From: Candidatus Odinarchaeia archaeon | GTDB taxonomy: Archaea; Asgardarchaeota; Odinarchaeia; Odinarchaeales; Odinarchaeaceae | NCBI GenBank assembly: GCA_029856525.1 | Contig: JAHQXC010000018.1 | Location: 1-20,289 of the forward strand | Reading direction: 5' to 3' | Length of the DNA stretch: 20,289 bases | Shown here: positions 15,882 through 18,552 of the stretch, in pieces | How positions within the stretch are numbered: the first letter of the stretch is position 1 | Layout of the letters: every line of letters starts with the position of its first letter | Notes under the pieces: generated by a model | Told to the model about the DNA's origin: nothing | Database searches by the model: none | Seen by the model: only the letters and a program-made list of their open reading frames with translations | Program-made: the position numbers and the translations under genes

Positions 15882-16802
15882 CTATATTAACCTTTTAACA
15901 GCTTCTTCAACAATATTCGAATCTATTTCGATTCCTTTAGGATTCTCAAGTCTAACATCTATGCTTAGAGCGCATAATTTCCTAATCGTACGCGGATGGC
16001 CCTTCGATAACTGGAATATTTTTTCTACCGCGTCTGGGGTGAAAGGGTATATTGCTGTTCCATCCACGCCTTTAAACTCCTCGTTTTTACTGTAAGCAAT
16101 CCACCTAGCAATATATTCCGCGGTTTCTTTGAAATTAAATCCTTTTAACTCGAATTTAATTAATATTCGATCGATAAACGGCTCCATTAACGGCGAAGAT
16201 AATTTCTTGAAGATCTCAGGTGTCCCTAATAAAATTATTCTGCAAATTTTTATTCCAGCATACTCTAAGTCACTGAACTGTTTTAACGTATCTAAACTAT
16301 TCAAACTAAGTTTCTGCGCTTCATCTAATATGATAATTGTTTGAACTTTTTTCTCAATAAAATTGTCTAGTAGCCTTTTAAGTATCATCGAGGCGACAGC
16401 TTCACGATTATTCCACTTCGATTCGAAATCTATATTAAGCTCAGATCCGATTAACCTTAACACTTGCAGATCGGTGTACTTCCCCGGGTCATCGATTACA
16501 ATGAACATATACTTTTTGCCTATAACCGGGTCGTTTCTAAGTTCAGCCTCCATTTCACGTCTAAAACATGATTTTCCGATCCCCGCATCCCCGTATATTA
16601 ATATTATTTGACTTTTCTGTCCGTTAAGCGCATGGGCGATTTGTATAATACAGTCTTCATTATTGTCAACGTATATTTCCCCTGCAGGTAGCTCTGCATC
16701 TTGGAATATTGTCTTCCGCCATCCTAGTAGCTCATAATATTTTTTCCTGGCCGCATCTAAATTTTTAATTCTACTAGTGAAAGCGTCTCGAGTCCAAGTC
16801 AT
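15882..16802 (-). CDS. ExeA/GspA-like AAA+ ATPase (AAA_22 type)
   Basis: N-terminal YYELLGWRKTIF (ExeA MYxxFFGLxxxPF-like), Walker A YGDAGIGKS, Walker B IILDEAQKL, ILLGTPE and sensor-II region GHPRTIRKLC. Confidence 0.85.
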   Translation of the reverse strand: MTWTRDAFTSRIKNLDAARKKYYELLGWRKTIFQDAELPAGEIYVDNNEDCIIQIAHALNGQKSQIILIYGDAGIGKSCFRREMEAELRNDPVIGKKYMFIVIDDPGKYTDLQVLRLIGSELNIDFESKWNNREAVASMILKRLLDNFIEKKVQTIIILDEAQKLSLNSLDTLKQFSDLEYAGIKICRIILLGTPEIFKKLSSPLMEPFIDRILIKFELKGFNFKETAEYIARWIAYSKNEEFKGVDGTAIYPFTPDAVEKIFQLSKGHPRTIRKLCALSIDVRLENPKGIEIDSNIVEEAVKRLI

Positions 16803-16919: not shown

Positions 16920-17459
16920 CTACTTCAGGCTTTTATGATCGCTTAGTTTTTCAATTAGTTCACGTAAATGGTTTTGAAAGCCGGCGAGTATTTCTTTAAC
17001 TTCTTTGAAATCGTTTTTATCTTCTTTAAGTTGGGCATAAGCTTTCTCATAATATTTATAATATTCTCTTAACTCTTCAGCTAATTCTAAATATTGTTGA
17101 AGCCGCGGGTCTTCGAATAAACCTAGATAGCCTAATAGTATGATCGTATAAATTGAACGGATTACATTCTTTCTAGCTTGTTTTAGAACTCTATTAAAAG
17201 CGCCCCTGGAAACCCCTGTGCTCGTCGTGATTATCCTTCTACGTCCCGGTTCTTCTAATTCTGCTTTTATTCTTCTTAGCCTTGCTTTCTTCTCATACCC
17301 TATTTTTTCATTTGAAAAACCATTTGCTAGGAAGTCTAATAGCAGCGTATTAAGCTGTATTTCAGTTAAATTGGTCTCTTTTAGGAGAGTTTTTGTAATA
17401 GGGTCTTCTAATTGCCGATTAATCCAAAAAATAACGTTTTTATCGGTTTCTTCGTTGAT
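16920..17459 (-). CDS. Conserved-looking helical hypothetical protein, probable non-AUG (ATC) start; absent from ORF track
   Basis: Stop-free frame 17516-16920 contains no ATG, GTG or TTG codon. GGAGG lies 7 nt upstream of in-frame ATC at 17459. Translation: INEETDKNVIFWINRQLEDPITKTLLKETNLTEIQLNTLLLDFL...GVSRGAFNRVLKQARKNVIRSIYTIILLGYLGLFEDP...DHKSLK* (179 aa). Confidence 0.8.
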   Translation of the reverse strand: MNEETDKNVIFWINRQLEDPITKTLLKETNLTEIQLNTLLLDFLANGFSNEKIGYEKKARLRRIKAELEEPGRRRIITTSTGVSRGAFNRVLKQARKNVIRSIYTIILLGYLGLFEDPRLQQYLELAEELREYYKYYEKAYAQLKEDKNDFKEVKEILAGFQNHLRELIEKLSDHKSLK

Positions 17460-17616
17460 ATTTTTTCCTCCTGAATTAAGTCTTAATATGGATACAAAAT
17501 TGTATACGTTAACCCTCTATATAAAATCTTGCGTTTAAAGTATATAATATTAAAAATTATAAAACCTATACATATTCTTATATTCTTTCTTTATAAATAT
17601 AGGATGAGGTGACCTT

Positions 17617-18170
17617 ATGGACGAGATTAAATTGTTAAGCATAGATATTGAGAAAGAACCGGATCACCAGATAATAATAGGGCAGGGGAATTTTTAACCC
17701 TTAACACGGGTTAAAACCCCAATTTCTCTATTAAAATGGTTGATGAACTTTACCGTATAGTTCAAGCCGCGCTACCAGGAGCTACTAGCGGCCAGGTTAA
17801 ATTCGCCTGCGCTATGAATGAAGCTGAGCCACGGTTGACTCGGGTGGAGGGGAATGATGAGACTCTGAAAAAACTAGCTGCGAAAAACGCTTTAAACATC
17901 GGCGCCAGTCACGTATTTGTAATTCAATTTAAGGGCGCCTGGCCGATTAATCTAATGAATGCTTTAAAGTTTAGTTATGGTGTAGTCAACTTATATGTTG
18001 GAACAGCCAATAAATGTAAAGTGATTCTCGCTGAAACGTCTTTAGGATCTTCTGTGGGGCGCGCTATTCTCGGAGTGGTGGACGGTCAATCTGTTAATAA
18101 AGTGGAGAGTGAGACGCAGAGACAGGAGCGTAAAGATTTAGTTAGAAAAATAGGGTATGACTTTGGATGA
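17617..18170 (+). CDS. Adenosine-specific kinase / AMP-binding protein (DUF355, PAE2307-like), split by a 32-nt intron: join(17617..17690,17723..18170), 173 aa
   Basis: GAGGTG RBS then ATG 17617 gives MDEIKLLSIDIEKEPDHQIIIGQGNF*. The downstream frame gives NFSIKMVDELY...FACAMNEAEPRLTRVEGND...IGASHVF...WPIN...GVVDG...IGY. Joined, they read IIIGQGNFSIKMVDEL, the family N-terminal motif. Confidence 0.92.
17691..17722 (+). other. Bulge-helix-bulge (BHB) archaeal intron in a protein-coding gene
   Basis: Central 4-bp helix GGGG(17685-88)/CCCC(17717-20), two 3-nt bulges AAT(17689-91) and AAT(17721-23), intron stem TTTTAACCC/GGGTTAAAA with a 7-nt loop, and an exon stem with 9 of 10 pairs. Cutting after the second nucleotide of each bulge removes exactly 32 nt and restores the frame. 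Confidence 0.88.
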
Positions 18171-18255
18171 TAATGTAATGCAGCGGAATACATCAACCTA
18201 CTAGCCAAATAGATACCGGTTCATTCCAAAAAATAATAAAAATATAAAAAATTAT

Positions 18256-18552
18256 TTATTTCTTATTTTTTGGAGCAGCTTTATTAGTTAACGCTATTTC
18301 AATAGCACTTACGTTTGCTTGACCGCCTTCTGCTGTATTGATTTGCTCTGTACTAATCTTTATATTCTTAACCTCCACTGATGTCATGAACCGGTTCTTC
18401 AAAATCTCTGCTACGTCAACAGCTCTACTAATAGCTCTACCTCGAGCTTTTACAATAATTTCTTCAGCTCCTTGGTTTAATTGGGTTACACAAGCTAAAA
18501 CATAGTTCATAACTGGTTTATTCCCAACGTATACGACATTTGCATCTGACAT
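18256..18552 (-). CDS. albA: Chromatin/RNA-binding protein Alba
   Basis: [14 protein letters not shown]...[18 protein letters not shown]...NVSAIEI is a canonical Alba sequence. GAGGTG RBS. Confidence 0.98.

What the first reader, a model, noticed from the sequence alone, without database searches (positions are those of the whole stretch)
17675..17733. Canonical bulge-helix-bulge intron interrupting a protein-coding gene (DUF355 kinase): candidate new archaeal pre-mRNA splicing target
Seen in the sequence: a 32-nt insert (TTTTTAACCCTTAACACGGGTTAAAACCCCAA) shifts the frame and places TAA at 17695. It folds as an exon stem (17675-84 with 17724-33, 9 of 10 pairs), a 4-bp GGGG/CCCC helix, two opposed 3-nt AAT bulges and a perfect 9-bp intron stem. 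Established knowledge: the archaeal tRNA splicing endonuclease (EndA) cuts after the second nucleotide of each BHB bulge and RtcB ligates the exons; the well-documented mRNA case is crenarchaeal cbf5. Applying that rule removes exactly 17691-17722 and gives GGG AAT TTC TCT ATT = G-N-F-S-I, restoring the GQGNFSI motif and a 173-aa protein behind a strong RBS. Inference: expression of this enzyme depends on tRNA-type splicing. In a possible Asgard archaeon, this would parallel eukaryotic non-spliceosomal mRNA splicing (HAC1/XBP1) and suggests more frameshifted 'pseudogenes' in the genome may be BHB-intron genes.
Basis: partly seen in the sequence, partly recalled or inferred. Interest (0 to 1): 0.95.

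Follow-up and report, generated by a model that had tools for sequence, protein, structure and literature searches.

The report
tRNA-type intron splits an Asgard protein gene
A 32-base insert shaped like an archaeal tRNA intron interrupts the only PF04008 ("adenosine-specific kinase") gene of this Odin-type Asgard archaeon, and all 13 distinct relatives' copies examined carry one at the same codon, so the full protein almost certainly needs tRNA-style cutting and rejoining of its mRNA, a process reported for very few archaeal genes.

Summary
Bases 17691-17722 break the PF04008 gene inside the Asn codon of its conserved GQGNFSI motif. [quoted passage not shown]

Removing them by the canonical EndA rule gives a 173-aa protein. 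It matches an HMM of 96 intronless homologues end to end.

The main evidence is comparative:
- 13 distinct orthologues, covering all 7 genomes of the order, carry an insert of 25-46 nt at exactly this codon.
- The GGGG/CCCC helix and the 3-nt bulges are kept, while the intron stem differs by compensatory changes (98% of cells paired, 10 pairs changed on both sides, 0 of 500 shuffles as good).
- 22 other genomes of the phylum that have the gene lack the insert.
- Exon 1 evolves like coding sequence, and 6 of 13 orthologues have no ATG at the supposed internal start.

The genome encodes alpha and beta EndA subunits and RtcB. Four more genes of this genome (gcvPA, kae1, a PflX-like radical-SAM gene and UPF0147) have the same kind of insert.

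No RNA data could be found, so splicing itself is inferred, not shown.

This scan found the same intron earlier in relatives' DNA. In the papers searched, only cbf5 and HVO_1309 are reported. I class it as a new member of a known kind.

The parts
17606..17612 (+). Shine-Dalgarno-like GAGGTGA, 4 nt upstream of the exon-1 start codon
   Evidence: Read. GGTGA/GGAGG-type motifs stand at the same place upstream of exon 1 in the relatives.
17617..17690 (+). Exon 1: 24 codons (MDEIKLLSIDIEKEPDHQIIIGQG) plus AA, the first two bases of the Asn codon
   Evidence: It is conserved as protein in 12 relatives, with many synonymous-only codon changes. It aligns to the N-terminus of intronless homologues.
17691..17722 (+). 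32-nt BHB intron. It shifts the frame and places TAA at 17695-17697 in the exon-1 frame.
   Evidence: An insert of 25-46 nt sits at the same codon in all 13 distinct orthologues.
17723..18170 (+). Exon 2: the T that completes the Asn codon, then FSIK-MVDELY... to the stop at 18168-18170. The 144-aa ORF from ATG 17736 lies inside it.
   Evidence: Pfam PF04008 Adenosine_kin, E 6.6e-41, profile positions 22-153 of 154. The spliced product is 173 aa.
17675..17684 (+). 5' strand of the outer (exon-exon) helix h; pairs with 17724-17733
   Evidence: 9 of 10 pairs in the window. In the 10-sequence alignment, 95.6% of cells pair and 3 pairs change on both sides at synonymous sites.
17685..17688 (+). 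5' strand (GGGG, exonic) of the 4-bp central helix H
   Evidence: GGGG is invariant in 13 of 13. Its partner is CCCC, or CTCC in 2 sequences (G.U).
17689..17691 (+). 5' bulge AAT. The predicted cut is after 17690.
   Evidence: AA is invariant (exonic) and the third base varies A/T (intronic) across 13 sequences.
17692..17716 (+). Intron hairpin h': stem 17692-17700 with 17708-17716, loop 17701-17707
   Evidence: The first 7 stem pairs are paired in 13 of 13 sequences, with 2-4 pair types each. In the 10-sequence alignment, 7 of 8 pairs change on both sides.
17717..17720 (+). 3' strand (CCCC, intronic) of the central helix H
17721..17723 (+). 3' bulge AAT. The predicted cut is after 17722.
   Evidence: The first base A is invariant, the second varies A/G/T/C (intronic) and the third, T, is invariant (exonic).
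17724..17733 (+). 3' strand of the outer helix h (codons TTC TCT ATT A..)

Best explanation
The gene is a split PF04008 gene whose pre-mRNA carries a 32-nt archaeal bulge-helix-bulge intron.

Proposed mechanism:
1. The transcript folds so that the two exon ends pair (17675-84 with 17724-33).
2. GGGG pairs with CCCC, and two 3-nt bulges flank that 4-bp helix on opposite strands.
3. The organism's (alpha-beta)2-type splicing endonuclease cuts after the second base of each bulge, that is after 17690 and after 17722.
4. RtcB joins the exons and probably circularises the intron.
5. The mRNA then reads ...GGG CAG GGG AA|T TTC TCT... and is translated from ATG 17617 into a 173-aa protein with an intact GQGNFSI motif.
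6. Unspliced RNA yields only a 26-aa peptide.

The intron was gained once, in the ancestor of this Odinarchaeia order, and has been kept since.

Shown here: the DNA anatomy, its conservation and covariation, the fit of the spliced product, and the presence of the enzymes' genes. Inferred: cleavage, ligation, and that splicing is constitutive.
For: Structure
- The minimum-energy fold is the BHB (z = -4.8).
- RNAalifold predicts the same structure independently from 10 orthologues.

Conservation
- Every close homologue in the protein database (58-91% identity) was called as a truncated protein of 132-144 aa, whereas more distant ones are 158-176 aa.
- The DNA of 13 distinct orthologues has an insert of 25-46 nt at the same codon.
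- All 7 genomes of the order have it. The 22 other genomes of the phylum with the gene have open frames of 161-200 aa.

Covariation
- Inner stem: the first 7 pairs are paired in 13 of 13 sequences, with 2-4 pair types each.
- On alignment A1, 98.1% of cells are paired, 10 pairs change on both sides, 0 of 500 shuffles reach this, and slid controls give 2-4 such pairs.

Cut sites
- The only variable bulge positions are the third base of the 5' bulge and the second base of the 3' bulge. The cut-after-second-base rule puts exactly these in the intron.
- That rule gives Asn in 13 of 13. Cutting after base 1 would give N/S/I/T, and after base 3 K/N.
- Intronless archaeal homologues have GQGNF.

Frame
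- Intron lengths fall in all three classes mod 3, and every unspliced form stops after 26-34 codons.

Product
- An HMM of 96 intronless homologues scores the spliced protein at 201 bits over positions 2-159 of 160, against 171 bits (positions 27-159) for exon 2 alone.
- The 40 residues spanning the junction score 28.7 bits, E 1.6e-10.

Exon 1
- In its 22 aligned codons, 5-10 differ synonymously only and 1-8 change the amino acid.

Enzymes
- There are two EndA genes, each with N- and C-terminal domains. One has the Tyr/His/Lys catalytic residues and the other lacks the His.
- RtcB is present.
- Asgard archaea are reported to have (alpha-beta)2 EndA with the L1 loop that gives broad specificity (PMC5829648).

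Context
- The same kind of insert occurs in gcvPA, where Pfam GDC-P positions 9-99 and 101-426 fall on either side and the insert is conserved in G001, G002 and G005.
- It also occurs in kae1, a radical-SAM gene and UPF0147.
Against: - There is no RNA-level evidence. No spliced junction, circular intron or junction peptide has been seen.
- BHB-like geometry of this strictness arises by chance a few times per genome (7 observed, 3-6 in shuffled genomes). The fold alone therefore proves nothing.
- The pair closing the outer helix at the 3' bulge is a single A-U followed by an invariant C/U mismatch. RNAfold leaves it open, so the 3' side is slightly relaxed compared with a textbook BHB.
- The alpha/beta assignment of the two EndA genes rests on my reading of catalytic residues, not on a test.
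Confidence: 0.88

Rival explanations
1. Translational bypassing or programmed frameshifting. The ribosome takes off before the hairpin and lands after it, as in phage T4 gene 60, so no RNA splicing is needed.
For: In the window itself the codon before the insert and the last three bases of the bulge region are both AAT. A stop codon and a hairpin follow the take-off site, which resembles gene 60 superficially.
Against: Matching take-off and landing triplets occur in only 1 of 13 orthologues. The others have AAA/AAT, AAA/AGT, AAA/ACT or AAT/ATT. Insert lengths fall in all three classes mod 3, so no single frameshift works. What is conserved is the 4-bp helix with two 3-nt bulges, which is the EndA recognition geometry. 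A bypass signal has no need of it.
Confidence: 0.03
2. The gene is damaged or N-terminally truncated. Only the 144-aa ORF from ATG 17736 is made, and the upstream 26-codon ORF and the hairpin are a leader or regulatory element.
For: Gene callers annotate exactly this 144-aa form in all close relatives. The ORF alone still passes the Pfam threshold.
Against: Six of 13 orthologues have Leu codons (TTA, CTA, CTT, CTG) instead of ATG at that position, and no SD-like motif precedes it. Exon 1 is conserved as protein, has its own SD and start codon, and matches family positions 2-26 that the short form lacks. Solved structures of the family are full-length proteins of about 160 aa that include this segment. 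This is the only PF04008 gene in the genome.
Confidence: 0.05
3. EndA cuts the mRNA at the BHB but the exons are not rejoined. The motif would then be an mRNA-decay or processing switch, as with eukaryotic TSEN cleavage of some mRNAs, rather than an intron.
For: Yeast TSEN cleaves mRNAs without splicing them (PMC10485636). I have no evidence for ligation here.
Against: Exact restoration of the frame and of an invariant Asn in 13 of 13 orthologues, and purifying selection on exon 1, have no explanation if the halves are never joined. RtcB is encoded.
Confidence: 0.04

Closest known systems
cbf5 pre-mRNA intron of Crenarchaeota (Desulfurococcales and Sulfolobales; Watanabe 2002, Yoshinari 2006, Yokobori 2009 = PMC2738675)
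   Same: It is a short BHB-type intron inside the coding region of a protein gene. It is confined to one clade, in organisms with a heteromeric (alpha-beta)2 splicing endonuclease, and is removed by the tRNA splicing machinery.
   Different: The gene (PF04008, not cbf5) and the lineage (Asgard/Odinarchaeia, not Crenarchaeota) both differ, so this is an independent gain. The cbf5 of this genome is uninterrupted (331-aa open frame). The motif here is close to canonical hBHBh', whereas the cbf5 motif is described as more relaxed (PMC10485636). Splicing of cbf5 was shown experimentally. Here it is inferred.
HVO_1309 mRNA of Haloferax volcanii, cut by EndA (PMC7714728; spliced form noted in PMC10485636)
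   Same: It is an mRNA substrate of the archaeal splicing endonuclease outside tRNA and rRNA.
   Different: It is a euryarchaeon with a homodimeric enzyme. By my recollection the BHB lies in the 5' UTR region; I did not check that in the paper.
Archaeal tRNA introns (canonical hBHBh' at 37/38 and non-canonical sites)
   Same: The geometry is identical: a 4-bp helix, two 3-nt bulges and flanking helices. The predicted cut positions are the same, and the size range (25-46 nt) is similar. This genome is rich in them: ARAGORN finds only 19 tRNAs, 14 with an intron called.
   Different: The host is an mRNA. Both strands of the outer helix and one strand of the central helix are coding sequence, so they evolve under both protein and RNA-structure constraint.
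HAC1/XBP1 unconventional mRNA splicing in eukaryotes (IRE1 cleavage, then ligation by tRNA ligase or RtcB)
   Same: It is spliceosome-independent removal of a short, frame-changing intron from an mRNA. Stem-loops define the cut sites and a tRNA-type ligase joins the exons.
   Different: The nuclease is different (IRE1, not EndA/TSEN), and splicing there is regulated by stress. Nothing here indicates regulation, so this is an analogy only.

Membership tests
Archaeal BHB intron (substrate of splicing endonuclease EndA) | A 4-bp central helix flanked by two 3-nt bulges on opposite strands | tested here: met
   GGGG/CCCC with AAT and AAT bulges. Kept in 13 of 13 orthologues. RNAalifold consensus agrees.
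Archaeal BHB intron (substrate of splicing endonuclease EndA) | Flanking helices h (exon-exon) and h' (intron) on either side of the bulges | tested here: met
   The outer helix has 9 of 10 pairs and the inner stem 9 pairs. Covariation: 10 pairs change on both sides, with 0 of 500 shuffles as good. One weakness: next to the 3' bulge, a single A-U pair is followed by an invariant C/U mismatch.
Archaeal BHB intron (substrate of splicing endonuclease EndA) | Cutting after the second base of each bulge yields a functional mature RNA | tested here: met
   It gives Asn and GQGNFSI in 13 of 13. The spliced protein matches an HMM of intronless homologues over positions 2-159 of 160.
Archaeal BHB intron (substrate of splicing endonuclease EndA) | The host encodes the splicing endonuclease and the RtcB ligase | tested here: met
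   Two EndA genes above the Pfam cut-off. RtcB is present, carries an intein and is cut by a contig end.
Archaeal BHB intron (substrate of splicing endonuclease EndA) | Spliced RNA, an excised or circular intron, or in-vitro cleavage is observed | not testable with these tools
   No RNA run is listed for this locus.
cbf5-type pre-mRNA intron (homologous to the crenarchaeal case) | The intron lies in the cbf5 gene | tested here: not met
   The host gene is PF04008. The cbf5 of this genome has an unbroken 331-aa frame. The element works like the cbf5 intron but is not the same intron.
PF04008 Adenosine_kin (DUF355) protein family | Match to the family profile over its full length | tested here: met
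   Exon 2: E 6.6e-41, Pfam profile positions 22-153 of 154. The spliced product covers positions 2-159 of 160 of an HMM built from 96 homologues. The kinase activity implied by the family name was not tested, and the PDB entries are titled 'hypothetical protein'.
Translational bypass element (T4 gene 60 type) | Matching take-off and landing codons | tested here: not met
   Matched only in the window. The triplets differ in 12 of 13 orthologues.

The most novel reading that the evidence does not exclude
This intron is one of a set. In this Odinarchaeia order, tRNA-type (EndA/RtcB) splicing would be a routine, obligatory step in making several proteins: PF04008, gcvPA, the essential kae1, a PflX-like radical-SAM enzyme and UPF0147, all in this 1.3-Mb genome. 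At least two of these introns date back to the ancestor of the order. That would be the first multi-gene mRNA-splicing regime in archaea, and it would lie in the closest prokaryotic relatives of eukaryotes. A bolder and much less likely version is that splicing is regulated, as for HAC1/XBP1.
Probability: 0.6. Interest if true: 0.85.

Novelty: new member of a known kind. Interest (0 to 1): 0.7.

Why it matters
Protein-coding genes interrupted by tRNA-type introns are reported for very few archaeal genes. A 2023 review counts two, cbf5 and HVO_1309, and expects more (PMC10485636).

This case adds a new gene in a new lineage, the Asgard archaea. It has a near-canonical motif and is kept across a whole order.

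It also has a practical consequence. Every gene caller truncated this gene to 132-144 aa in all relatives. Odinarchaeia proteomes in databases therefore contain systematically wrong models for this gene and at least four others.

If RNA data confirm it, the locus gives a clean natural substrate for studying how EndA reads an mRNA. It would also bear on whether protein-coding genes in the relatives of eukaryotes tolerated introns before the spliceosome existed.

Tried and rejected
- RNA evidence: the look-up of sequencing runs listed no RNA holder. Read laying on three DNA contig sets laid nothing, which is uninformative.
- Search for the spliced junction as DNA (pattern GGRCAGGGGAATTTYTCNRTWAAA). 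There was one hit in metagenome contigs, a chance match in unrelated sequence on L049, and none in GTDB genome contigs. So I found no cDNA-like or intron-less Odin-type copy.
- Genome-wide count of mRNA introns by BHB geometry plus ORF joining. Candidates at the true cut site did not clearly exceed controls with the 3' cut shifted by 1-2 nt. The excess was about 10 on a background of about 65, even with a codon-usage score, a spanning-ORF filter and an A-first bulge filter. The method cannot list the introns; it only suggests a handful rather than hundreds.
- Exon 1 alone (24 aa) gives no Pfam hit because it is too short. I replaced this test with an HMM built from the fetched homologues.
- I did not run Pfam, a structure prediction or a database search on the spliced protein itself. 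It has no reference, and I did not type it in.
- Rfam: no known RNA family at 17300-18300.
- Repeat or mobile element: blastn-short of the intron and the whole BHB against the genome finds only itself.
- Group I or group II intron, and intein: rejected on size (25-46 nt) and on in-frame stops.
- Literature: six searches found no report of an intron in PF04008 or of mRNA BHB introns in Asgard archaea. The library lacks most subscription journals.

Full report
**Observation**

The window carries a PF04008 (Adenosine_kin, DUF355) gene on the + strand that is broken near its 5' end.
- An ORF starts at ATG 17617, behind GAGGTGA, and stops after 26 codons at TAA 17695-17697.
- A second ORF in another frame, from ATG 17736 to 18170 (144 aa), matches Pfam positions 22-153 of 154.

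RNAfold of 17670-17738 gives, as the minimum-energy structure, an outer helix, the GGGG/CCCC helix, a 3-nt bulge and a 9-bp hairpin. The energy is -22 kcal/mol, z = -4.8, and 0 of 200 shuffles fold as well. Removing 17691-17722 gives a 522-nt reading frame and a 173-aa product reading ...HQIIIGQGNFSIKMVDELY....

**Is the fold more than chance?**

On geometry alone, only weakly. A strict scan of the 1.32-Mb genome required a 4-bp Watson-Crick central helix, two 3-nt bulges, an inner run of at least 7 pairs and at least 8 of 10 outer pairs. It found 7 motifs, against 3-6 in three block-shuffled genomes. The window's motif is the best of the seven. The case therefore has to rest on other evidence.

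**Comparative evidence**

A protein search with the 144-aa ORF showed that every close homologue (58-91% identity, several named Odinarchaeia MAG proteins) had been called at 132-144 aa. More distant homologues are 158-176 aa.

I fetched the DNA of these relatives and of species-representative genomes.
- All 7 genomes of the order, in two families, have the break.
- The 22 other genomes of the phylum that have the gene show open frames of 161-200 aa.
- In all 13 distinct orthologous sequences an insert of 25-46 nt sits at the same place, inside the Asn codon of GQGNFSI.
- The flanks GG(G/A)CAGGGGAA and C(C/T)CCANTTT are kept, but the inserts differ in sequence and length.
- Their stems keep pairing through compensatory changes. 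The first seven inner pairs are paired in 13 of 13 sequences, with 2-4 pair types each.

On a MAFFT alignment of ten of them, the named structure has 98.1% of cells paired and 10 pairs changed on both sides. None of 500 shuffles reaches this, and structures slid by 1-3 columns give only 2-4 such pairs. RNAalifold predicts the same structure on its own. Even the outer helix, which is coding on both strands, shows paired synonymous changes (ATA/TCT to ATC/TCG).

**Cut sites**

Across the 13 sequences the 5' bulge is AA(A/T) and the 3' bulge is A(A/G/T/C)T. The established rule is that EndA cuts after the second bulge base. That rule puts exactly the two variable positions in the intron and always yields AA|T = Asn.
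- Cutting after the first base would give N, S, I or T.
- Cutting after the third base would give K in 9 sequences.

Intronless archaeal homologues have GQGNF. The comparative pattern therefore supports the canonical cut positions independently of the rule.

**The product**

Insert lengths fall in all three classes mod 3, and every unspliced form ends after 26-34 codons. All spliced forms are 173-176 aa.

An HMM built from 96 intronless full-length homologues gives these scores:

| Query | Score | HMM positions |
|---|---|---|
| Spliced protein | 201 bits | 2-159 of 160 |
| Exon 2 alone | 171 bits | 27-159 |
| The 40 residues across the junction | 28.7 bits (E 1.6e-10) | 2-34 |

Exon 1 evolves as coding sequence. 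In its last 22 codons, 5-10 differ only synonymously and 1-8 change the residue, mostly I/V/L or D/E. Solved structures of the family (2D16, 2EKM, 1VGG, 1WVQ/2GL0) are full-length proteins of about 160 aa that include this N-terminal segment.

**Rival readings**

- *Internal start at 17736.* Six of 13 orthologues have a Leu codon there, and no SD-like motif precedes it.
- *Ribosomal bypass.* This needs matching take-off and landing codons, which occur only in the window (1 of 13).
- *A single frameshift.* This cannot serve inserts of all three length classes.
- *Cleavage without ligation.* This does not explain why the frame and the Asn are restored in every lineage.
- *A repeat or mobile element.* The element is found nowhere else in the genome.
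- *A known RNA family.* There is no Rfam match.

**Machinery**

The genome encodes two endonuclease genes, each with the N- and C-terminal EndA domains. One has the Tyr/His/Lys residues and the other lacks the His (this is my reading). That fits an (alpha-beta)2 enzyme. Asgard archaea were reported to have this type with the L1 loop linked to broad specificity (PMC5829648). The cbf5 intron was likewise linked to heteromeric enzymes (PMC2738675, PMC10485636).

RtcB is present, interrupted by an intein and cut by a contig end. ARAGORN finds only 19 tRNA genes, 14 with an intron. This suggests a genome full of interrupted tRNA genes.

**Context in the same genome**

Leads from other first-stage notes were checked here.

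| Gene | Location | Insert | What splicing restores |
|---|---|---|---|
| gcvPA | C123:4019-4047 (+) | 29 nt | YTPYQAEASQG; Pfam GDC-P 9-99 on one side and 101-426 on the other; same-site inserts with different stems in G001, G002 and G005 |
| kae1 | C27:13284-13315 (-) | 32 nt | GPGLGPCLR; splits TsaD profile positions 63 and 64; 8-bp outer helix |
| PflX-like radical-SAM gene | C124:8175-8203 (-) | 29 nt | CxxxCxxC |
| UPF0147 | C13:17456-17482 (+) | 27 nt | The family's C-terminal segment (exon 1 matches Pfam UPF0147 positions 2-69 of 81) |

The cbf5 gene of this genome is uninterrupted. My own geometry-plus-ORF scan could not separate true introns from background. It is compatible with a handful of introns, not hundreds.

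**What is missing**

No RNA run holds the locus, the read-laying run returned nothing, and no spliced copy turned up in contig collections. Splicing is therefore a strong inference, not an observation.

**Comparison with what is known, and novelty**

The closest known case is the crenarchaeal cbf5 pre-mRNA intron. The mechanism and enzyme type are the same, but the gene and lineage differ, and the motif here is more canonical. A 2023 review lists cbf5 and HVO_1309 as the two archaeal genes spliced this way and expects more (PMC10485636).

Six literature searches found nothing on PF04008 or on Asgard mRNA introns. A 2026 preprint on Asgard tRNA introns does not treat mRNAs.

This scan had already found and followed up the same intron in three relatives' genomes. 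My analysis was made independently on this window and agrees with them.

**Verdict**

This is a real feature and very probably a spliced mRNA intron (0.88). It is a new member of a known kind, with interest of about 0.7.

Noticed in passing
G000:C123:4019-4047 (+); locus L046:720-748: A 29-nt BHB insert (CCCC/GGGG helix, ATA and AGA bulges, 9-bp hairpin) splits gcvPA. Pfam GDC-P positions 9-99 lie on one side and 101-426 on the other, and splicing restores YTPYQAEASQG. Same-site inserts with different stems occur in G001, G002 and G005.
   Followed up: yes
G000:C27:13284-13315 (-); locus L056: A 32-nt BHB insert in kae1/tsaD. The Pfam TsaD profile is split between positions 63 and 64. The outer helix has 8 Watson-Crick pairs and the central helix is G.U-rich. 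Splicing restores GPGLGPCLR.
   Followed up: partly
G000:C124:8175-8203 (-); locus L047: A 29-nt BHB insert lies between Cys2 and Cys3 of the CxxxCxxC motif of a PflX-like radical-SAM gene. Splicing gives CTFRCAYC. The outer helix is weak.
   Followed up: partly
G000:C13:17456-17482 (+); locus L048: A 27-nt in-frame BHB insert with a stop codon sits near the 3' end of a UPF0147 gene. Exon 1 matches Pfam positions 2-69 of 81, and a 13-aa exon 2 follows.
   Followed up: partly
G000:C95:1-1311 (-); locus L014: The RtcB gene carries an intein inserted after GYDINC, and the contig end cuts it. Only the first 50 profile positions match before the intein.
   Followed up: partly
whole genome G000: ARAGORN finds only 19 tRNA genes in a 93%-complete genome, 14 of them with an intron called (a few calls are implausible). 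Many tRNA genes are probably hidden by multiple or non-canonical introns.
   Followed up: no
window 15882-16802 (-) and 18256-18552 (-): Gene order is conserved around the split gene across the order. An AAA_22-type ATPase lies upstream on the opposite strand, and an Alba gene lies convergent downstream, followed by POR subunit genes.
   Followed up: no
G000:C91:23876-24214 (+); locus L045: The cbf5 gene, host of the classic crenarchaeal mRNA intron, has an unbroken 331-aa frame in this genome.
   Followed up: partly
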